A stretch of DNA of 64,000 nucleotides, taken from positions 1 through 64,000 of the IMG/VR virus record IMGVR_UViG_3300029585_000037, one strand, 5' to 3'. The DNA is from a virus. Each line of letters starts with the position of its first letter. Position 1 is the stretch's first letter. Positions 32,911-47,155 of this stretch are shown in pieces. The notes below the pieces were generated by a model. It was not told the DNA's origin. It saw nothing but the letters and a program-made list of their open reading frames with translations, and did not search any database. A program made the position numbers and the translations under genes.

Positions 32911-35238
32911 ATGAGTAACGTACAAATGCAAGACTTCAATTTCATCAGTAAGTACTCCCACTACTTGCCAGAGGTCGACAAAAAAGAAACATGGGAACAG
33001 AGCATCGATAGGATTTACAATATGCATATGATAAAATATGCTGACGAGATGACTCCAGAATTAGAAAGTCTAATTGAAAAAGCAAAACAAGCTGAAAAAG
33101 AACGTAAGGTGTTATCAGCTCAAAGAGTTAGGCAGTTTGCTGGAGTAGGTATTCTAAGGAATAATTGTAAATTATATAATTGTGCATCATCCTATGTAGA
33201 TAGAGTGCAATTCTTTCCAGAAATAATGTGGGTTCTGCTTTGCGGTGCAGGTGCAGGATTTAGTATTCAAAACAAACATATAAGTCAATTGCCTGAAGCT
33301 CATGATGTAGGTAATGATAAATTCTATTATACAATAGAAGATAGCATTGAAGGGTGGGCACATGCAATAGGTTATCTGGTAAACTCTTATATGAAAGATG
33401 AAAACTCAGAGTACCACGCTGCATATGGTAAAACAGTAGTGTTTGATTATAGTCTAATTAGACCTGCTGGAGCATTAATTGCAGGACAATTCAAAGCACC
33501 TGGACCAGATGGACTTAGAAATTCTATTGAAAAGATAAGAAGTATATTTGAAAAGGCAGTAGGTGGAAATAAGAAGTCGAGACAGTTATTCAGTATCGAA
33601 ATTTATGATATTACGATGTGGATAGCTGATGCTGTTTTAAGTGGTGGCGTAAGACGTAGTGCAACCATATGTATATTCTCAATCGATGATGAGGATATGA
33701 TGAAAGCTAAGACAGGGAATTGGTTTAATGAAAATCCTCAAAGACGTTTGTCTAACAATTCAGCTGCTCTGATAAGAGGCAAGGCTACTAAGGAACAATT
33801 TTTAGACATATTTAATTCTATTAAGGAATTTGGCGAGCCAGGATTTGTATTTACACCAAATGAAGATATTACATATAATCCTTGTGTAGAGATAGGTAAA
33901 AGACCTCAAACAGAAGATGGGCGATCAGGATGGCAATTCTGTAATTTAACTGAAGGTAATGGACGTTATTGTGATACTCCAGAGAAATTCTATGAAGTAT
34001 GTGAAGCATCTGCGATTATAGGAACTTTACAAGCTGGATATGATAAATTTTCATTCCTTGGAGAAATAACAGAAGAGATAGTTGCACGTGAAGCCTTACT
34101 TGGAGTGTCTATTACAGGATGGATGATGAATCCAGATGTATTATTTGATAAAGAAGTGTTGAAAAAAGGTGCTAATATAGTTAAGGAAACAAACGCAAGA
34201 GTTGCTGATATAATAGGTATTAGACATGCTGCAAGAACTACTTGTACAAAGCCTGCAGGCAACAGTTCAATTCTATTAGCTACATCTTCAGGAATACATG
34301 GAGACCATTCACCGAGATATATCAGACGTATTCAAGTTAATAAAGACGAAACAGCTGGACAAGTTTATGCTGAAACTAATCCTTTCGCAGTAGAGCAGTC
34401 TGTATGGAAACACACTGATAATATCGTATCTTTTGCAATAAAATCTACAGGTGGAGCTAAATTTAAAAAAGAACTTGTAGGAATAGAACAATTAGAATAT
34501 GTTAAGCATGCACAAAAGTACTGGGTTGAAGAGGGTACTCGACAAGAATTATGTGTTGATCCAGAGACCAGACATAATATATCTAATACAATACAAGTAG
34601 CTCATGACGGATGGGATAAGGTAGCAGATTATGTTTGGGAAAACAAAGATTATTTCGCTGGTATTAGTTTCTTGGCAGCTTCAGGTGACTTAGATTATCC
34701 TCAAGCTCCATTTAGTCAAGTGCTAACTCCAGAAGAGATGGTGAAAGAGTATGGGTCAGGTGTAGTCCTTGCTTCAGGTTTAATCGTAGATGGTTTAAAA
34801 GCCTTTGAAAATAATCTTTGGACTGCTTGCGACTATGGATTAGGTCGTATGAAGTTAGAATTCAACAAAGAGAAAGCAATAGAACTTATTTCAAATAATA
34901 CAAGAGACAATGACAATGGAGATATTTTCTTCAGCTACATGATAGAGGGTGTTATGGTTACTGATATAAATGCTGTTATTGGTCATGTAAAGAATAAGTA
35001 TGATGAAAAGATAGATTGGGTAAGACGTTTCCAGAAATTCGCTAAGTCTTATTTAGATGGAGATTTACAAAGAACTGCATATTGTTTAAAACATGTATCA
35101 TTATGGCATTCTTGGTGTAAGCTAAGAAATGAGATGAAAGAAGTGGATTGGAACAGCGTTAGTTTTAAAGATGACTACATCGCATCTGCTGCAGATAATG
35201 TAGCTACAGCTTGTGCAGGTGGAGCTTGTGAAATTTAA
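32911..35238 (+). CDS. nrdJ: Class II (adenosylcobalamin-dependent) ribonucleotide reductase
   Basis: 775 aa; YNPCVEIGK (NPC.E catalytic Cys/Glu), FCNLTEGN, C-terminal redox pair CAGGACEI. Confidence 0.8.
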   Translation: MSNVQMQDFNFISKYSHYLPEVDKKETWEQSIDRIYNMHMIKYADEMTPELESLIEKAKQAEKERKVLSAQRVRQFAGVGILRNNCKLYNCASSYVDRVQFFPEIMWVLLCGAGAGFSIQNKHISQLPEAHDVGNDKFYYTIEDSIEGWAHAIGYLVNSYMKDENSEYHAAYGKTVVFDYSLIRPAGALIAGQFKAPGPDGLRNSIEKIRSIFEKAVGGNKKSRQLFSIEIYDITMWIADAVLSGGVRRSATICIFSIDDEDMMKAKTGNWFNENPQRRLSNNSAALIRGKATKEQFLDIFNSIKEFGEPGFVFTPNEDITYNPCVEIGKRPQTEDGRSGWQFCNLTEGNGRYCDTPEKFYEVCEASAIIGTLQAGYDKFSFLGEITEEIVAREALLGVSITGWMMNPDVLFDKEVLKKGANIVKETNARVADIIGIRHAARTTCTKPAGNSSILLATSSGIHGDHSPRYIRRIQVNKDETAGQVYAETNPFAVEQSVWKHTDNIVSFAIKSTGGAKFKKELVGIEQLEYVKHAQKYWVEEGTRQELCVDPETRHNISNTIQVAHDGWDKVADYVWENKDYFAGISFLAASGDLDYPQAPFSQVLTPEEMVKEYGSGVVLASGLIVDGLKAFENNLWTACDYGLGRMKLEFNKEKAIELISNNTRDNDNGDIFFSYMIEGVMVTDINAVIGHVKNKYDEKIDWVRRFQKFAKSYLDGDLQRTAYCLKHVSLWHSWCKLRNEMKEVDWNSVSFKDDYIASAADNVATACAGGACEI

Positions 35239-35260: not shown

Positions 35261-35701
35261 ATGTCACAAAAAGTAAGAGTAGTAGCTGAGAATGGAGTTC
35301 AGTTACCTAAGTATGAAACAGAAGCATCTGCTGGTATGGATGTGAGAGCAAATATCACCGAGCCAGTAGTATTAGAGTCGATGGAAAGAGCACTCATTAA
35401 AACTGGTTTGTCTATTGAATTACCAGTAGGTATGGAGTGTCAAGTAAGACCAAGAAGTGGTTTAGCCTATAAGCAAGGAATTACTGTATTAAATGCTCCA
35501 GGCACTATTGATGCAGATTATAGAGGTGAAATTGGTGTAATTCTTGTTAACCTATCTAATGAGAATGTAACTATACACCCTAATGACAGAATAGCTCAAT
35601 TAGTATTCGCTAAGCATGAAAGAATACATTGGATATCAGCTACAGAGTTATCTGAAACAGAACGTGGCTCTGGTGGTTTTGGTTCTACTGGTAAGTCATA
35701 A
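35261..35701 (+). CDS. dut: dUTP diphosphatase (trimeric dUTPase)
   Basis: [48 protein letters not shown]: all five dUTPase motifs. Confidence 0.95.
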
Positions 35702-36237: not shown

Positions 36238-36441
36238 ATGGCAAAAGATGCAATTATGGCGTATAACGTCAAGAAAAAAGAAAAAGAAGAGATGCAAGAT
36301 GCAGTCATCGACAGAAATGGTAAGCGTTGTTTCGCTAAAGGAGTTTCTGCAGATGGAGACAAATTGTGTGTTGCAATCGGACTTGATAATGCTAAGAAAG
36401 CTATCAAGAATGGCGTAGCCACAAAAGGTGAAGGCTGGTAG
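36238..36441 (+). CDS. small basic hypothetical protein
   Basis: 67-aa ORF; preferred over two overlapping alternative-frame ORFs because of normal composition. Confidence 0.45.
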   Translation: MAKDAIMAYNVKKKEKEEMQDAVIDRNGKRCFAKGVSADGDKLCVAIGLDNAKKAIKNGVATKGEGW

Positions 36442-36474
36442 TCTAACTTTAGATTGATTAATAGCTCAATCGTT

Positions 36475-36546
36475 TCTACATTAGCTCAGTAGGTAGAGCA
36501 ACAGAGACTAATCTGTAGGTCACTGGTTCGAGTCCAGTATGTAGAT
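36475..36546 (+). tRNA. tRNA-like gene with canonical acceptor, D and T arms but a 6-nt anticodon loop (GACUAA); identity undetermined
   Basis: TCTACAT-TA-GCTC-AGTAGGTA-GAGC-A-ACAGA-GACTAA-TCTGT-AGGTC-ACTGG-TTCGAGT-CCAGT-ATGTAGA-T; 72 nt; no encoded CCA. Confidence 0.6.
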
Positions 36547-36569
36547 CAAATTTATGTTCTTTTACATTT

Positions 36570-36915
36570 GGGGGTGCTTGGTTTTGACAGGTACGAAATT
36601 TAAAACAATTAGTCAAGGTATATGGTTGTGAATACCTTTAAAATTCCATCTAAATTTTAAATGGCAAAGTTTTAACAATGCCTTCTATGAATGCTCCGAT
36701 GAGAGCAGCTGCCTAATAGGTTCATAGACGAGTGACGACTACTTTGGAACAGAAAGTCGTAAGTTGTGCAGTTTGTCTATTCTGCCTATAAAGATAGTCT
36801 GGTGGAGTCATTCAGTTGACCTTATCTTGGACAGATGTAAAATGTATCCTATGACTATGAATAAATTGTTTTGAGTGGACTATTTTGGACGGCAGTTCGA
36901 CTCTGCCCACCTCCA
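36570..36915 (+). ncRNA. ssrA: tmRNA (ssrA), full length, with tag reading frame at 36663-36719
   Basis: 5' GGGGGTGCTTGGTTTTGACAGG and 3' GGACGGCAGTTCGACTCTGCCCACCTCCA match the conserved tmRNA termini; 7-bp acceptor stem with G3-U; T-arm GGCAG/TTCGACT/CTGCC; frame ...AAT GCT CCG ATG AGA GCA GCT GCC TAA TAG. Confidence 0.85.
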
Positions 36916-37136
36916 CGAAAATCCAACCGATAGGTAAGGTATTACTCAATACCGAACTGACTGCGGATAGGGTCAATAGGAGTTGCTTTTGGGTGAAGTG
37001 ACACGGAGTTTGTTAGACTTATATAACATGATGCATCGCTGCGCACCGTATTTGACGCTGCCAAAAAATCATGGGAGATTAATGGCTTGTCTTTCAAACT
37101 CCAACCCACCTATTGTTAACACCCAAAATTCATATT

Positions 37137-38003: not shown

Positions 38004-38750
38004 ATGTCTAAAAAAGAAAATGATAAGGTAACCAAAGACGTACCACAAACGTCAACGAGCAACCAGAAAAATGACCAACCTACTGATAAAGAGGTTCAAG
38101 AGAAAGTAATGAAGCGTGTGGATGAGATAGTCCAAGAGAAACAAGAAGAGGCAGATGCTAATTTTAAGTTTCTAATGATAGGTGGAAATGTACCTGAACT
38201 ATCAGAATCAATTTTAGCCTTAGCAGAAGCATCAGATCATCAAATTTCTGTATTTGAATTAGATAATAGTGAAATGTCTTTTATAACTAAGAGCCGAAGT
38301 GAAAAAAGAGCAGAAGAGTCAGCTGTAGATTTTCTGAAAGATGAAAAGAATATACAACATGCTAAACAGCAGTGTATAGAAATTAAGAAGATATACTATG
38401 GTGATAAGGTTGAAAATCCTGAAGAGATTGAAGGCTGGATGGACAAAAGACGTTTAAAAAAGAAAGTTAATGCGAGTTGGAAACAATTAGATAGCTTATT
38501 ACAACATTTAGACTTATTTGGTATGGTTAAATGGGATACTGATAATCGACATAGATTTGATGTTACAATTGATCCAAATTTAATCATTAATAATAAAGTA
38601 AATGAGCTTGAACAACTATTAAATTTAGCGAAAGGTAAAATACTTGCTTTGTATGATGACAGAAGTCAAATGTCAGATGAGTCAAAGAAAGTATTAACGA
38701 GCCTTAAACGCAAATTTAATACGGACAGAGAATGGAACTTGAAACATTAG
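38004..38750 (+). CDS. hypothetical protein; positional candidate for small terminase subunit
   Basis: 248-aa ORF overlapping the terL start by 19 nt; no motif recognised. Confidence 0.5.
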   Translation: MSKKENDKVTKDVPQTSTSNQKNDQPTDKEVQEKVMKRVDEIVQEKQEEADANFKFLMIGGNVPELSESILALAEASDHQISVFELDNSEMSFITKSRSEKRAEESAVDFLKDEKNIQHAKQQCIEIKKIYYGDKVENPEEIEGWMDKRRLKKKVNASWKQLDSLLQHLDLFGMVKWDTDNRHRFDVTIDPNLIINNKVNELEQLLNLAKGKILALYDDRSQMSDESKKVLTSLKRKFNTDREWNLKH

Positions 38751-40405
38751 ATTATAGGGTACTCGACAAATTTGATAATGCCTTTTCAGTTGAAAAACTT
38801 GGAGAGGCATTTCGTATTTTAGATGAGATTATCGATGGATTAGATGAATATGGAATGCGTGAGCTTTTAGGTGGTAGAACTGCCGATATTGATAAAGTTT
38901 ATGCAGTTCTATTAGAAGAGATACTAAAGGTACTTTACGGACAAGAAAATCAGATAGATGAAAAATTAGGCTATTTCGACCATCTTACAGACAACATAGA
39001 GAATGTATTATGTACAGAAAATCTTACATATTTTATCATTTCTAAGATACCAGAATTTGAACTAAACTGGCATCACTTAGAATGGGGAGACATAGCTCAA
39101 AGATACGATAAATTTAACATAATTGCAGCACGTGACCATGGTAAGAGTTTCTACTGGAGTAATGCTTATCCAATATGGAAGATGTGGAGATATCAGTCAG
39201 CAAACAATGCACGTAAAGACTTAAAATTATGTAAAAAAGGATTTATGTTTTCATTTTCTCAAGAACAGGCAATAGACCTCTTAGAGATTATGAAAAATAC
39301 AATAGAAGATAATGATAGTTTACGTGAAAGGCTATTTCCAGGCAAAGGTGATGGTTGGGCAAAAACAGAGATAGTTTGTAAGAATGGAGCCAGAATGAAA
39401 ACAAAAGGTTTTGGATCATCTGTACGTGGAGCTCACCCTGGATATATAATAGTAGATGATGGTTTAAAAGATAATGTAATTTACAGTTCAGTACAACGTA
39501 AGAAGTCTATAGATTATTTTCATGCGGTGATTATGAATATGATTGTTCCTAAAGGACAAGTTGCTGTTGTAGGTACTCCATTTCACTCTAATGATTTATA
39601 TGGAGATTTGAAGAGTAAAACAGGTTGGCATGTTCGTGAATATCCAGCTATATTTCCAGATGGTAAAATACTATGGCGTGAGCGTTGGGGTTTTAAGGAA
39701 CTTTTAGACAAACGTGAAACGCAAGGTAATTTAATATTCTCAAGAGAAAATCTTGTAAAACCTGTAACAAATGAAAGTACGATATTTCCAGATGAGGTTA
39801 TCAGAAGAGCCTATGTTGGAATGCAAGATTATACATTTAGTCATAGTAGAGATGGGTTTAAGATGAAATTCGATAGAGTTGTAACAGCTGTCGATTTTAG
39901 TATATCATCTTCAGTTGGAGCCGATTATACTGTAATCATGACTGCTGGAGTAGATGATAAAGATAACATTTGGCTGATGAACATTACCAGATTTAAAGGT
40001 AAGAAGTTTGCTGAGCAAATGGCTGTAATGAAACAGATAAATACAGCTTTTAAGCCTGATGTAATGATGATGGAAGATAACGTATTCCAACAGATATTTG
40101 TTCAAGAAAGTGATCGAGCAGGACTACCAGTTCAAGGTCATACGACTGGTAAGAATAAATACGACTTAAAAGCTGGTTTGCCAGGATTAGCAATACTTTT
40201 TGAACGTGGTAAGATTAGAATACCAAGAGGTGATCAAAACTCAATAGATATGAGTGATTTATTAGCTTCAGAGTTATCGAGTGTAACTTGGACTGAAAAA
40301 GGATTAGAGGGTGTTGGGGAACACGATGATATGGCGATGTGTATGTGGATACTATCTTTAGCTGCCAAGAAACTAACTACTGGATTCAGTTTTAAATTCT
40401 TATAA
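38732..40405 (+). CDS. terL: Terminase large subunit
   Basis: Walker A-like IIAARDHGKSFYWS, Walker B GYIIVDDG, RNase-H-like nuclease half (AVDFSISS..DYTVIMT, HDDMAMCMW). Confidence 0.8.
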   Translation: MELETLDYRVLDKFDNAFSVEKLGEAFRILDEIIDGLDEYGMRELLGGRTADIDKVYAVLLEEILKVLYGQENQIDEKLGYFDHLTDNIENVLCTENLTYFIISKIPEFELNWHHLEWGDIAQRYDKFNIIAARDHGKSFYWSNAYPIWKMWRYQSANNARKDLKLCKKGFMFSFSQEQAIDLLEIMKNTIEDNDSLRERLFPGKGDGWAKTEIVCKNGARMKTKGFGSSVRGAHPGYIIVDDGLKDNVIYSSVQRKKSIDYFHAVIMNMIVPKGQVAVVGTPFHSNDLYGDLKSKTGWHVREYPAIFPDGKILWRERWGFKELLDKRETQGNLIFSRENLVKPVTNESTIFPDEVIRRAYVGMQDYTFSHSRDGFKMKFDRVVTAVDFSISSSVGADYTVIMTAGVDDKDNIWLMNITRFKGKKFAEQMAVMKQINTAFKPDVMMMEDNVFQQIFVQESDRAGLPVQGHTTGKNKYDLKAGLPGLAILFERGKIRIPRGDQNSIDMSDLLASELSSVTWTEKGLEGVGEHDDMAMCMWILSLAAKKLTTGFSFKFL

Positions 40406-40406
40406 A

Positions 40407-40979
40407 ATGAAAGTATATAATTTTCCATCTAAATTTCTATTTCAAACAAAAGTAGAAAATCATAAGGAACTTAAAAATCAACTTTTTGATAAGATAATAG
40501 ATTTATCAAAAAAGAATGAAAAAGAATATAAACAAAATCATGATACTTGGGATTGTAAAGTATTAACAAGTTTCTTTGATCCAGACTCAGCTGTTATATT
40601 TAATGAAAATCCTGATTTGTATGATGCTATTTGGAAAGCGTTTGATGAAATGTTAGGTAATGTAATTTTAAATTCTAAAGTGCCAAAAAGTAAGCTAAAT
40701 AGAATATGGTTTAATCTTTACAAAAAAGGATATAACCAAGAGGTACACCAGCATTGTGGTAGTGATTTTTCAGGAGTTTATATATTACATTGCACAGAGC
40801 CTAACAAGACAGTATTCTATTCAAATGAAAATCATAGATTGCTAAATAAGACATTAAAAACAGAAGATGTAGAAGAGGGTACTATATTATTATTTCCATC
40901 TCATCTATCTCATTATGTAAATGAAATACAAGATGAATTAAGAGTTACAGTAGCTTTTAATATCACTTGCGAAGTTTAA
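40407..40979 (+). CDS. 2OG-Fe(II) oxygenase family protein (TIGR02466/2OG-FeII_Oxy_5-like)
   Basis: VHQHCGSDFSGVYILH and LLFPSHLSHYV...RVTVAFNI follow the H.H...SGVYY / FPS.L.H / R.S..FN pattern. Confidence 0.6.
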   Translation: MKVYNFPSKFLFQTKVENHKELKNQLFDKIIDLSKKNEKEYKQNHDTWDCKVLTSFFDPDSAVIFNENPDLYDAIWKAFDEMLGNVILNSKVPKSKLNRIWFNLYKKGYNQEVHQHCGSDFSGVYILHCTEPNKTVFYSNENHRLLNKTLKTEDVEEGTILLFPSHLSHYVNEIQDELRVTVAFNITCEV

Positions 40980-46138: not shown

Positions 46139-47155
46139 ATGGCATACGAGCGCAAGAATTGGTATCATCTTCTACCAAGTGATAAAAAGGAATTAGATAA
46201 GAAAAATCTAAAATTGTTTTTCAATTTAATGATTGAAAGACAAGATATTTGGTATAAAAGATTTTTATTAGGACAACCTGCTCCATGGACTAAAAATAAA
46301 TTCTTCAAAAATCACAAGTTTACAAATGTTTATAGAGAATTAGACCGTAATTCTCAGTGGCTTATACAAAATGTAATTCTAAAAGAAAAAGATAAAAGAA
46401 ATCTTGTATGGAAAATACTTTTATACAGGATTTTCAACAATCCAGAATTATTTATTTGGATATCATTCCAAGAAACTTCATTTAATAGCTATTTTCCAGA
46501 CTTTAAGGAATATGATAGAGATGAATTAGCTAATCTAATAATAGAATATAGAGAATTGGGTAAAAAGCCATTTACATCAGCTTATTTCATCAATCCTAAT
46601 TGTAGAGGTATGACTAGAACTGAACATTACGCTAAGAATGTAGTGTTTGATTTATACAATTCTGTAGAAGATGTATTGCAAATAATGGAAAATTCTAATG
46701 ATCCAGAAGATTTAATACAAAGACTTGAAAAGTGCAGAGCAGTGGCGAGTTTTATATCACATGAGTTCTACCAAGATTTTACTTATCCAGAAATTTATAC
46801 AGGAAAGTCTTTAATGAACTTTGATCAAGATGATTATACGAATGTGGGAGATGGCGCAGCACTTGGAATACGTTTGATATTTCCATCACTTGTAGGTAAA
46901 AAACAAAAAGAAGCAATTTACATTTTACGTGATTATGGTAATGATTATCTTGAGTCACATGGCTTTAAATTTCTGGTATGGAATATTGATAAGCAAAAGT
47001 ATGAGGTGTCTAATAAAGGTAGTATAACTTTACACCAAGTGGAGATGTGGTTGTGTGAGTTCGGCAAGTATTGGAAAATGAAAGTTGGGCTGGGGAAACA
47101 ACGTGGAAAATTCATACCGAGAACCATCGCCACACGTCAACCTCGAAACATGTAA
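46139..47155 (+). CDS. aGPT-Pplase-like protein (alpha-glutamyl/putrescinyl thymine pyrophosphorylase family; DNA base hypermodification)
   Basis: N-terminal block IERQDIWYKRFLLGQPAPWTKNKFFKNHKFTNVYRELDRNSQWL matches the remembered family signature ER..I...R..G.P.PWT.D.I....+FTNVYRE.DR.T.W. Confidence 0.55.
   Translation: MAYERKNWYHLLPSDKKELDKKNLKLFFNLMIERQDIWYKRFLLGQPAPWTKNKFFKNHKFTNVYRELDRNSQWLIQNVILKEKDKRNLVWKILLYRIFNNPELFIWISFQETSFNSYFPDFKEYDRDELANLIIEYRELGKKPFTSAYFINPNCRGMTRTEHYAKNVVFDLYNSVEDVLQIMENSNDPEDLIQRLEKCRAVASFISHEFYQDFTYPEIYTGKSLMNFDQDDYTNVGDGAALGIRLIFPSLVGKKQKEAIYILRDYGNDYLESHGFKFLVWNIDKQKYEVSNKGSITLHQVEMWLCEFGKYWKMKVGLGKQRGKFIPRTIATRQPRNM

What the first reader, a model, noticed from the sequence alone, without database searches (positions are those of the whole stretch)
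36570..36915. Full-length phage-encoded tmRNA (ssrA) with a divergent tag ending ...PMRAAA
Seen in sequence:
- The 5' end GGGGGUGCUUGGUUUUGACAGG and the 3' end GGACGGCAGUUCGACUCUGCCCACCUCCA reproduce both conserved tmRNA termini. E. coli has GGGGCUGAUUCUGGAUUCGACGGG ... GGACGCGGGUUCAACUCCCGCCAGCUCCACCA.
- These ends pair into a 7-bp acceptor stem with the G3-U alanine identity pair, and there is a GGCAG/UUCGACU/CUGCC T-arm.
- Between them lies GGC AAA GUU UUA ACA AUG CCU UCU AUG AAU GCU CCG AUG AGA GCA GCU GCC UAA UAG (36663-36719). It ends Ala-Ala-Ala plus a double stop, and an in-frame UAA sits 12 nt upstream.

Because both halves and a tag frame are present, this is not the 3' ssrA fragment that temperate phages carry as attP.

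The tag is at most GKVLTMPSMNAPMRAAA, and the resume codon is unknown. It is long and lacks the ...ALAA terminus I remember for bacterial tags. The encoded 3' end is ACGA rather than ACCA.

The phage may sustain or redirect trans-translation during infection.
Basis: partly seen in the sequence, partly recalled or inferred. Interest (0 to 1): 0.8.

Follow-up and report, generated by a model that had tools for sequence, protein, structure and literature searches.

The report
Phage-encoded full-length tmRNA gene
An uncultivated ~94-kb phage carries a complete, apparently working copy of tmRNA, the bacterial RNA that frees stalled ribosomes; the call is correct, but phage tmRNAs are already known, so this is a new example, not a new kind of thing.

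Summary
Window 36570-36918 (+) matches Rfam tmRNA RF00023 end to end (67.5 bits, gathering score 47, E 3.8e-24).

A homologous tmRNA sits at the same position in a related phage contig (L109, terminase 81% identical). Between the two, 57 base pairs stay 98% paired, with 8 compensatory double changes (none in slid controls) and 2 more counted by hand. The 17-codon tag frame survives an in-frame 3-nt indel.

The resume codon is GGC (36663), preceded by U(-5)A(-4) as the E. coli U85/A86 rule expects. The tag is (A)GKVLTMPSMNAPMRAAA.

- No SmpB, CCA-adding enzyme or integrase was found in 95 window ORFs or in the next 10 kb.
- Eight other terminase relatives lack the gene at this locus, so it is an accessory gene.
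- The features called divergent are mostly normal for phage tmRNAs: long tags and a non-CCA 3' end. Only the AAA ending is rare.
- GKV-type tags recur in two-piece tmRNAs of Bacteroidota phages, such as Maribacter phage Panino.
- ARAGORN misses this gene.

Phage tmRNAs are documented in about 2.3% of phage genomes. Verdict: new member of a known kind, modest interest.

The parts
36570..36918 (+). tmRNA (ssrA) gene, one-piece. The mature RNA probably runs from 36570 to 36915, with CCA added after transcription.
   Evidence: Rfam RF00023 scores 67.5 bits (gathering 47), E 3.8e-24, model 1-374. The syntenic homolog L109 2268-2632 scores 56.6 bits. The minimum-free-energy fold recovers the acceptor stem, T-arm and H2, z = -2.39.
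36570..36576 (+). 5' strand of the acceptor stem (GGGGGUG). G3 at 36572 forms the G-U alanine identity pair with U at 36912.
   Evidence: Read directly from the sequence. All 7 pairs are kept in both sequences.
36598..36610 (+). 5' strand of helix H2 (AUUUAAAACAAUU), which pairs with 36864-36876.
   Evidence: 13 bp. Against L109 there are 3 compensatory double changes, 2 one-sided changes and 1 mismatch (helix 2).
36615..36649 (+). Pseudoknot PK1. Stem 1 is AAGGU 36615-36619 with ACCUU 36634-36638. Stem 2 is either GAAU 36630-36633 with AUUC 36643-36646, or AUGG 36622-36625 with CCAU 36646-36649.
   Evidence: Stem 1 is invariant. The GAAU/AUUC register has one compensatory change (U:A to C:G in L109). 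The AUGG/CCAU register matches the Rfam and E. coli topology but loses a pair in L109. The register is not settled.
36663..36713 (+). Tag reading frame: resume codon GGC at 36663-36665, then 17 codons encoding GKVLTMPSMNAPMRAAA.
   Evidence: Translation. U(-5)A(-4) lies upstream only in this frame (rule from PMC2481249). L109 has a 17-codon frame, GKVINMMPSTRIAAIAA, with a 3-nt in-frame indel. ARAGORN picks this frame in the chimeras.
36714..36719 (+). Tandem stop codons UAA UAG that end the tag.
   Evidence: Read directly from the sequence.
36724..36785 (+). Pseudoknot PK2. Stem 1 is AUAGACGAG 36724-36732 with UUUGUCUAU 36772-36780. Stem 2 is GCAG 36768-36771 with CUGC 36782-36785. The pseudoknot encloses a hairpin at 36735-36760 with loop GGAACAG.
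   Evidence: Stem 1 has 1 compensatory change (helix 5). Stem 2 is GCAG/CUGC here and GUAU/AUAC in L109, 2 compensatory changes counted by hand. The hairpin stem covaries across IMG/VR phage tmRNAs: ACGAC/GUCGU, ACUAC/GUAGU, GCAC/GUGC, GGAC/GUCC and GAGC/GCUC.
36794..36858 (+). 3' domain, in the place of PK3/PK4. The closing helix is AUAGUC 36794-36799 with GACUAU 36853-36858. Inside are the motif UGGUGGA (36800-36806) and hairpins at 36807-36820 and 36823-36837.
   Evidence: The closing helix is kept, with C:G changed to U:G in L109 (helix 8). UGGUGGA followed by a hairpin is shared with other IMG/VR phage tmRNAs. The internal fold is not resolved with two sequences.
36864..36876 (+). 3' strand of helix H2 (AAUUGUUUUGAGU).
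36891..36907 (+). T-arm: GGCAG, loop UUCGACU, CUGCC.
   Evidence: 5 bp, with 3 compensatory double changes against L109 (GAGGG/CCCUC) (helix 9).
36908..36918 (+). 3' strand of the acceptor stem (CACCUCC, 36908-36914), discriminator A (36915), then CGA in place of CCA.
   Evidence: Read directly from the sequence. L109 has ACUA. Only 12 of 59 distinct IMG/VR relatives encode ACCA.
36475..36547 (+). Adjacent tRNA-like gene, 23 nt upstream. It is probably co-transcribed with the tmRNA. Its anticodon loop has 6 nt (GACUAA).
   Evidence: Rfam tRNA 57 bits. ARAGORN reports 'tRNA-???'. The homologs in L101 and L109 have the 7-nt loop CAACUAA.

Best explanation
This is a genuine one-piece tmRNA gene carried as an accessory gene by a lytic-looking ~94-kb phage that probably infects Bacteroidota.

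Proposed mechanism, with shown and inferred steps marked:

1. The RNA is transcribed on the + strand together with the upstream tRNA-like gene. Host RNase P cuts its 5' end (inferred).
2. The 3' end is trimmed to the discriminator A at 36915. Host CCA-adding enzyme completes it, because the gene encodes ACGA (the sequence is shown; the processing is inferred).
3. Host AlaRS charges it with alanine through the G3-U pair (the pair is shown; the charging is inferred).
4. With host SmpB and EF-Tu it enters ribosomes stalled on broken mRNAs (inferred). No phage SmpB was found in ~74 kb of the ~94-kb contig.
5. Translation resumes at GGC 36663 and adds (A)GKVLTMPSMNAPMRAAA. It stops at UAA UAG, which releases the ribosome. 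The ...AA-COOH end marks the product for host proteases (frame and tag are shown; the fate of the product is inferred).

The likely benefit is extra ribosome-rescue capacity while the infection floods the cell with damaged or non-stop mRNA.
For: - The Rfam full-length hit lies above the gathering score in both the window and the syntenic homolog L109.
- In the window/L109 comparison, 57 pairs are 98.2% paired with 8 compensatory double changes. All six slid controls give 0. Two more compensatory changes in PK2 stem 2 were counted by hand.
- The tag frame is conserved at 17 codons across a 3-nt indel and ends in AA plus a stop in both sequences.
- U(-5)A(-4) precedes only this frame. Among ARAGORN-called phage tmRNAs, 37 of 41 have UA there. 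A86 is the main frame determinant in E. coli (PMC2481249).
- ARAGORN accepts the tag and the 3' two-thirds of the gene once two AU-rich 5' pieces are swapped.
- The context is phage and has no integrase.
- The hairpin with loop GGAACAG, the UGGUGGA motif, the non-CCA ends and the long tags are shared with many IMG/VR phage tmRNAs.
- GKV-type tags occur in Maribacter phage Panino and in a Sunxiuqinia contig.
- Some phages depend on trans-translation to form plaques, as the lambda-immP22 assay shows (PMC2481249).
Against: - There are no expression, aminoacylation or tagging data.
- Only two independent sequences support the covariation. The PK1 stem-2 register and the PK3/PK4 region are unresolved.
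- Eight other terminase relatives (73-88% identical to the window's terminase) lack the gene within 4.5-5 kb of the terminase, so it is dispensable.
- The adjacent tRNA-like gene has a defective-looking 6-nt anticodon loop in this phage.
- The tag ends AAA, not the hydrophobic-AA ending usual in relatives (1 of 39). That may weaken protease recognition.
- The +2 frame is also open for 20 codons in both sequences.
- An all-AU hairpin (36637-36661) could mask the resume context.
- The host is unknown, and SmpB could lie in the ~20 kb of the contig that was not examined.
Confidence: 0.8

Rival explanations
1. The gene is a decaying relic. On this view a tmRNA was captured from a host or another phage, is no longer functional in this genome, and is on its way to being lost.
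For: - ARAGORN does not detect it.
- 8 of 9 informative terminase relatives lack it at this locus.
- The neighbouring tRNA-like gene has lost one anticodon-loop base relative to L101 and L109.
- The tag ends in the rare AAA, and no CCA is encoded.
Against: - Every helix that can be checked is intact in the window copy itself.
- Differences from L109 are compensatory, not disruptive: 8 of 57 pairs change on both sides, and only 2 of 114 cells are unpaired, both in L109.
- The frame, the double stop and the UA context are all intact.
- The window copy scores higher against Rfam than L109 does, 67.5 against 56.6 bits.
- The ARAGORN failure is explained by AU-richness in two short segments.
- Non-CCA ends are the norm in this phage group.
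Confidence: 0.1
2. The RNA redirects or blocks host trans-translation rather than supplementing it. It could outcompete host tmRNA for SmpB and attach a phage-specific tag whose fate differs from host-tagged proteins: stabilised, or sent to another protease or adaptor. Alternatively it could act as an SmpB sink.
For: - The tag is long and unlike the short tags I recall for Bacteroidota hosts (GENNYALAA-type; from memory, not tested here).
- An N-terminal GK(V/T)(I/L/M) motif recurs in one-piece and two-piece phage tmRNAs.
- The AAA ending may bind ClpX less well.
- A TLD-only phage molecule has been proposed to titrate SmpB (PMC4131195).
- No phage SmpB was found.
Against: - The tags of this phage group still end in hydrophobic-AA or AAA followed by a stop, which is the hallmark of degradation tags.
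- A complete mRNA-like domain with a correct resume context argues for productive tagging, not simple sequestration.
- Nothing in the data speaks to the fate of tagged proteins.
Confidence: 0.08
3. The gene is an attP-type ssrA sequence used for integration into the host tmRNA gene. The full-length copy would restore the gene after insertion.
For: tmRNA genes are common integration sites. This role was suggested for the tmRNA of Maribacter phage Panino, which has an integrase (PMC11590407).
Against: - No integrase or recombinase Pfam family was found among the 95 window ORFs or the 10 kb beyond them.
- The tag and the middle of the RNA have diverged freely between two phages, whereas attP identity with a host gene would constrain them.
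- Both halves of the gene are present, and its GC content and motifs are phage-like.
Confidence: 0.02

Closest known systems
Bacterial one-piece tmRNA (SsrA, Rfam RF00023), for example E. coli 10Sa RNA
   Same: It shares the tRNA-like domain with G3-U, discriminator A and the T-arm. It also has the long H2 helix and PK1 shortly before the resume codon. The U-A at -5/-4, a tag ending in AA followed by stop codons, and further pseudoknotted structure before H2 closes are all present. Its length of 349 nt compares with 363 nt in E. coli.
   Different: It is encoded by a phage, with no smpB nearby. CCA is not encoded. The tag is 17 codons, against 10 in E. coli, and ends AAA rather than LAA. The RNA is very AU-rich (39% GC). 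The PK3/PK4 region could not be matched to the bacterial consensus, where the Rfam alignment has low posterior probability.
Phage-encoded tmRNAs already described: mycobacteriophages Bxz1, Cali, Catera and others, and Bacillus phage G (PMC4131195); huge phages (PMC7162821); 402 of 18,146 phage genomes in one survey (PMC9004378); Cellulophaga phage Calle (PMC8776804)
   Same: Like these, it is a complete ssrA in a phage genome, often next to tRNA genes, with an unproven function.
   Different: No detectable sequence similarity to any of the 50,697 deposited phage genomes was found beyond ~30 nt of the T-arm. It is missed by ARAGORN, the tool used in those surveys. Unlike some huge phages, no phage SmpB was found.
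Two-piece (permuted) tmRNA of Maribacter phage Panino, and related RF04321 members in IMG/VR contigs and a Sunxiuqinia indica contig
   Same: The 5' acceptor and D-analog sequence is nearly identical (GGGGGUGxUUGGxUUUGACAG). The tags start the same way: Panino GKVMNVSFAPTVRQFA, Sunxiuqinia GKTIQMFDYEAKVAA, window GKVLTMPSMNAPMRAAA, L109 GKVINMMPSTRIAAIAA. The host phylum is Bacteroidota where known.
   Different: In those genes the order is circularly permuted and the pseudoknot-rich middle is missing. The window gene is in the standard order, with H2, PK1, PK2 and a 3' domain. RF04321 scores it only 16.1 bits.
One-piece phage tmRNAs in IMG/VR that share the 5' end, such as L024/L049/L051 with tag GNVYNNMEVSGLLATSKVAA
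   Same: These are the best nhmmer matches after L109, at 45.7 bits. Shared features are GCUGCCUAAU(U)AGGU around the stop codon, the hairpin with loop GGAACAG, long tags and frequent non-CCA ends.
   Different: Similarity is confined to the termini and a few motifs. The tag sequences and the middle domains are not alignable.

Membership tests
tmRNA, one-piece (Rfam RF00023) | Covariance-model score at or above the curated gathering score over the full model | tested here: met
   67.5 bits against 47, model positions 1-374 of 374, E 3.8e-24. The homolog L109 scores 56.6 bits.
tmRNA, one-piece (Rfam RF00023) | tRNA-like domain: 7-bp acceptor stem with a G3-U70 alanine identity pair, discriminator A, and a T-arm with a UUCRANU-type loop | tested here: met
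   Acceptor 36570-36576 with 36908-36914, G36572-U36912, A36915, and T-arm 36891-36907 with loop UUCGACU. The T-stem has 3 compensatory changes against L109.
tmRNA, one-piece (Rfam RF00023) | Long helix H2 joining the tRNA-like domain to the pseudoknot ring | tested here: met
   13 bp, 36598-36610 with 36864-36876, with 3 compensatory changes. It is recovered by the MFE fold.
tmRNA, one-piece (Rfam RF00023) | Pseudoknot PK1 a short distance 5' of the resume codon | tested here: met
   Stem 1 (AAGGU/ACCUU) is conserved. Two candidate second stems exist, one with a compensatory change. PK1 ends 13-16 nt before the resume codon. ARAGORN accepts this PK1 in the chimeras. The stem-2 register is not settled.
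tmRNA, one-piece (Rfam RF00023) | Internal tag reading frame with a defined resume codon, U-A at -5/-4, a C-terminal ...AA and a stop codon | tested here: met
   GGC at 36663, upstream UAAAU, 17 codons, AAA, then UAA UAG. The frame is conserved in L109 across a 3-nt indel (PMC2481249).
tmRNA, one-piece (Rfam RF00023) | Pseudoknots PK2-PK4 between the tag and H2 | tested here: inconclusive
   A PK2-like pseudoknot is supported by 3 compensatory changes. The region 36794-36858 has a conserved closing helix and hairpins, but its topology cannot be fixed with two sequences. The Rfam alignment there has low posterior probability.
tmRNA, one-piece (Rfam RF00023) | Mature 3' CCA, alanylation, SmpB binding and trans-translation activity | not testable with these tools
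   The gene encodes ACGA, so CCA must be added after transcription. That is also true for 47 of 59 distinct relatives. No RNA or biochemical data exist.
tmRNA, one-piece (Rfam RF00023) | Detection by ARAGORN (an operational criterion used in phage surveys) | tested here: not met
   No call even at -ps70. L109 is also missed. The cause is localised to nt 28-45 and the 12 nt before the resume codon. This is a tool limitation, not a missing defining feature.
Permuted two-piece tmRNA (Rfam RF04321) | Gene order with the 3' acceptor piece upstream of the 5' acceptor and coding piece | tested here: not met
   The order is standard. RF04321 gives only 16.1 bits (gathering 47, E 0.81) over the T-arm.
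attP-type ssrA fragment of temperate phages | Only the 3' part of ssrA is present, next to an integrase | tested here: not met
   The gene is full length with a 5' half and a tag frame. No integrase family was found among 95 ORFs or the next 10 kb.

The most novel reading that the evidence does not exclude
The window's RNA may belong to a phage-specific tmRNA lineage of Bacteroidota phages that exists in both one-piece and permuted two-piece forms. Its long tags share a conserved start, GK(V/T)(I/L/M). On this reading the tags are shaped by phage needs rather than host proteolysis: a phage-chosen fate for tagged proteins, or rescue of ribosomes stalled by host RNA-targeting defences. The odd neighbouring tRNA would then be part of the same translation-rescue cassette.
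Probability: 0.1. Interest if true: 0.6.

Novelty: new member of a known kind. Interest (0 to 1): 0.3.

Why it matters
The finding adds a well-supported, sequence-divergent example to the small set of phage tmRNAs. It also yields three practical points.

- **Surveys undercount.** ARAGORN-only surveys, the usual way phage tmRNAs are counted, miss this gene. They also missed about a quarter of the tmRNA-like loci sampled here.
- **Shared traits across the group.** In the IMG/VR phage tmRNAs sharing this 5' end, unusually long tags and genes without an encoded CCA are typical.
- **One-piece and two-piece forms are linked.** Both forms share the same 5' end and the same tag start in Bacteroidota phages. 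That gives a handle on how permuted tmRNA genes arise.

It does not by itself answer why phages carry tmRNA. The phage is uncultivated, so the question is not directly testable with this example.

Tried and rejected
- **ARAGORN.** Runs at default and lowered thresholds gave no call. Single-feature edits did not rescue detection: CCA, UUCGAC, an LAA ending, a GCA resume codon, the T-loop, or a shorter tag. Only swapping nt 28-45 together with the 12 nt before the resume codon did.
- **IMG/VR scan with the 5' end pattern.** It returned 99 loci, all only distantly related.
- **Terminase peptide-pattern search of IMG/VR.** It found nothing.
- **Metagenome scans.** The exact 5' 22-mer gave 0 hits. 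The 19-mer around the resume codon gave 47 hits, all unrelated coding sequence.
- **Further IMG/VR scans.** The resume 17-mer, the GGAACAG hairpin and the CCUAUGACUAU motif gave only chance hits. The 3' TLD pattern found only unrelated tmRNAs.
- **Genome scan of GTDB species representatives with the 5' pattern.** It gave one hit, a permuted tmRNA in Sunxiuqinia indica.
- **BLAST of the tmRNA against 50,697 phage genomes.** Only ~30-nt T-arm matches appeared.
- **Syntenic look-ups.** Ten terminase relatives were fetched; only P0003 (L109/L110) carries the gene, eight others lack it at this locus and P0001's contig (L108) is too short to tell.
- **Covariance model.** I did not build one from the two sequences, because the model length (~350) exceeds the calibration limit.
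- **Stop-codon recoding.** I considered it because of the odd tRNA and rejected it. The standard code gives 94% coding density with 95 tightly packed ORFs.
- **Short alternative tag (A)AKF in the +1 frame.** Rejected, because it lacks the UA context and the AA ending.

Full report
**1. Observation**

- Rfam's tmRNA model RF00023 matches it end to end (model 1-374). The score is 67.5 bits against a gathering score of 47. E is 3.8e-24 for the whole 64-kb window against 4227 families, and 6.8e-26 on the local region.
- The 7-bp acceptor stem pairs 36570-36576 with 36908-36914 and includes G3-U (36572/36912). The discriminator is A36915.
- The T-arm is GGCAG/UUCGACU/CUGCC at 36891-36907.
- The frame GGC...GCC UAA UAG lies at 36663-36719, with an in-frame UAA at 36651-36653.
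- The encoded 3' end is ACGA.

**2. Context**

The window is phage DNA.

- It encodes a terminase large subunit (38732-40405), a class II-type ribonucleotide reductase (32911-35238), dUTPase, a DEDDh exonuclease, a portal protein, DNA polymerase III alpha, RecA and an amidase.
- All genes lie on the + strand and GC is about 31%.
- The standard genetic code gives 95 tightly packed ORFs covering 94% of the window.
- The terminase is also encoded, residue for residue, on JGI metagenome contig Ga0265381_100144 (93,934 bp).
- The closest isolated phages by terminase are Bacteroides phages DAC19 and relatives, at only 35.6% identity.
- The tmRNA lies in the largest non-coding gap of the window (36419-37027). 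It starts 23 nt after a tRNA-like gene (36475-36547).
- No SmpB, CCA-adding enzyme or integrase family was found among the 95 ORFs. None appears in the precomputed Pfam hits for the next 10 kb of the contig.

**3. Relatives and conservation**

The terminase has many relatives on ~90-100-kb contigs. I fetched the syntenic region for ten of them.

- One, P0003 (81% identical terminase; L109 from ENA and the identical L110 from Logan), has the same tRNA followed by a tmRNA. That tmRNA lies at L109 2268-2632 and scores 56.6 bits against Rfam.
- Eight others have no tmRNA within 4.5-5 kb of the terminase, by Rfam or nhmmer. They are P0002, P0004, P0008, P0021, P0025, P0015, P0014 and P0009, at 73-88% identity.
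- The contig of the 96% relative (L108) is too short to tell.
- Relative to L101 (88% terminase), the tmRNA plus about 200 nt downstream is an insertion or deletion directly after the conserved tRNA.

The gene is therefore an accessory gene that is gained and lost within this phage group.

**4. Structure**

The window and L109 tmRNAs are 83% identical in aligned columns. For a hand-derived structure of 57 pairs in nine helices, 98.2% of cells form standard pairs. Eight pairs change on both sides, and no such change appears in any of six slid controls. The eight fall as follows:

| Helix | Compensatory double changes |
|---|---|
| T-stem | 3 |
| H2 | 3 |
| PK1 second stem | 1 |
| PK2 first stem | 1 |

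- PK2's second stem (GCAG/CUGC against GUAU/AUAC) adds two more by hand count, because MAFFT misaligns it.
- A hairpin with loop GGAACAG (36735-36760) has a stem that covaries across more distant IMG/VR phage tmRNAs.
- The minimum-free-energy fold recovers the acceptor stem, T-arm and H2, with z = -2.39.
- Two things remain open. The first is the register of PK1's second stem. GAAU/AUUC has the compensatory change, while AUGG/CCAU has the E. coli-like topology but loses a pair in L109. The second is the fold of 36794-36858, which has a conserved closing helix and the UGGUGGA motif shared with other phage tmRNAs.

**5. Tag and resume codon**

- Frame 0 from GGC 36663 gives 17 codons, GKVLTMPSMNAPMRAAA, followed by two stops.
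- L109 gives 17 codons, GKVINMMPSTRIAAIAA. The two are related by substitutions and a 3-nt in-frame indel.
- The five bases before GGC are UAAAU. This places U at -5 and A at -4, the positions of E. coli U85 and A86. A86 is the main determinant of frame choice there (PMC2481249).
- The +1 and +2 frames would have AA at those positions. This figure is partly circular, because ARAGORN may use that motif.
- The +1 frame is 3 codons long. The +2 frame is open for 20 codons in both sequences but ends in ...LIGS and ...IIER.
- When the AU-rich 5' pieces are replaced, ARAGORN reports exactly GKVLTMPSMNAPMRAAA**.

The appended peptide is therefore (A)GKVLTMPSMNAPMRAAA.

**6. How unusual it is**

- IMG/VR holds at least 99 loci with the 5' end GGGGGTGNNTGGNTTTGACNGG. 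ARAGORN calls a tmRNA in 75 of the 100 loci held at that point.
- Among 59 distinct one-piece candidates, only 12 encode ACCA. The rest have ACAA, ACTT, ACTA, ACGA and similar ends.
- One-piece tags are mostly 17-26 residues long.
- Tag endings are VAA, MAA, IAA or LAA. AAA occurs once in 39.
- Length and missing CCA are thus group traits, and only the AAA ending stands out.
- None of these sequences resembles the window in the middle.
- The 50,697 deposited phage genomes give only ~30-nt T-arm matches.
- One of those matches is the annotated SsrA of Maribacter phage Panino, whose host is in the Flavobacteriia. It is a permuted two-piece tmRNA with tag GKVMNVSFAPTVRQFA.
- The same 5' end and GK-type tags occur in RF04321 (permuted tmRNA) members in IMG/VR and in a Sunxiuqinia indica (Bacteroidota) contig, whose tag is GKTIQMFDYEAKVAA.
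- Together with the terminase affinity, this points to a Bacteroidota host. That is an inference.

**7. Mechanism**

Shown here: a complete tRNA-like domain with the alanine identity pair, H2, PK1, a correctly set tag frame, a PK2-like pseudoknot, and purifying or compensatory evolution in two phages.

Inferred: RNase P processing, 3' trimming and CCA addition, alanylation, use of host SmpB and EF-Tu, ribosome rescue, and proteolysis of the tagged products. The likely benefit is extra rescue capacity during infection.

Rival explanations:
- a decaying relic (0.1);
- a redirecting or inhibitory tmRNA (0.08);
- an attP-type element (0.02).

**8. Comparison and novelty**

Complete tmRNAs in phages are established.

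- Bxz1-like mycobacteriophages and Bacillus phage G carry them (PMC4131195).
- Huge phages carry them, some together with SmpB (PMC7162821).
- One survey found them in 402 of 18,146 phage genomes (PMC9004378).
- Flavobacterial phages Calle and Panino carry them (PMC8776804, PMC11590407).

This gene passes the membership tests for one-piece tmRNA that can be run in silico. It is a new, divergent member, not a new kind.

**Verdict:** observation confirmed, interpretation supported, novelty 'new member of a known kind', interest 0.3.

Noticed in passing
window 36475-36547 (+); L109 2076-2148; L101 3264-3338: The tRNA-like gene just upstream of the tmRNA has a 6-nt anticodon loop (GACUAA) in the window. 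ARAGORN reports 'tRNA-???'. Its homologs in two related phages have a 7-nt loop, CAACUAA, which means A33 instead of U33 and a rare ACU anticodon. The body resembles phage tRNA-Ile(GAU). Its identity and function are unclear.
   Followed up: partly
window 36919-37136: A 218-nt non-coding stretch follows the tmRNA. It is absent from L101 and not conserved in L109. It is GC-richer than its surroundings and its fold has z = -2.38. No Rfam family matched it at E <= 1.
   Followed up: partly
L109 2149-2267: A 119-nt spacer lies between the tRNA and the tmRNA in the related phage. It has an inverted repeat (AAGTGAGAA...TTCTCACTT) and is not present in the window, where the spacer is 23 nt.
   Followed up: no
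window 46139-47152, with 35261-35701 and 40407-40979: The window encodes a 5-hmdU DNA kinase homolog (PF18723, E 3.9e-46). It also encodes dUTPase, a dCMP deaminase, a thymidylate-synthase family protein and a 2OG-Fe(II) oxygenase. Together these suggest the phage hypermodifies thymidine in its DNA.
   Followed up: partly
L010, L052, L074, L077, L093 (IMG/VR); L107 4675-5015 (Sunxiuqinia indica); L204 1441-1773 (Maribacter phage Panino): Permuted two-piece tmRNAs (Rfam RF04321, 53-76 bits for the IMG/VR and Sunxiuqinia loci; Panino by ARAGORN and its own annotation) share the window's 5' end and have GK-type tags of 15-16 residues (L074 reads DK...). They sit among tRNA genes, in phages or a likely prophage of Bacteroidota. 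One-piece and two-piece forms therefore seem to coexist in one phage tmRNA lineage.
   Followed up: partly
L001-L100: ARAGORN called no tmRNA in 25 of 100 loci, 24 of them IMG/VR loci holding a tmRNA-type 5' end and the 25th (L100) a copy of the window itself. Some of these are cut at contig ends. Surveys of phage tmRNAs that rely on ARAGORN alone probably undercount them.
   Followed up: no
proteins P0028, P0044, P0052, P0062 (terminase homologs): Some terminase large-subunit homologs are ~890-907 aa long. They carry intein or homing-endonuclease Pfam domains (PF05203, PF05204, PF14528), so inteins have invaded the terminase in this phage group.
   Followed up: no
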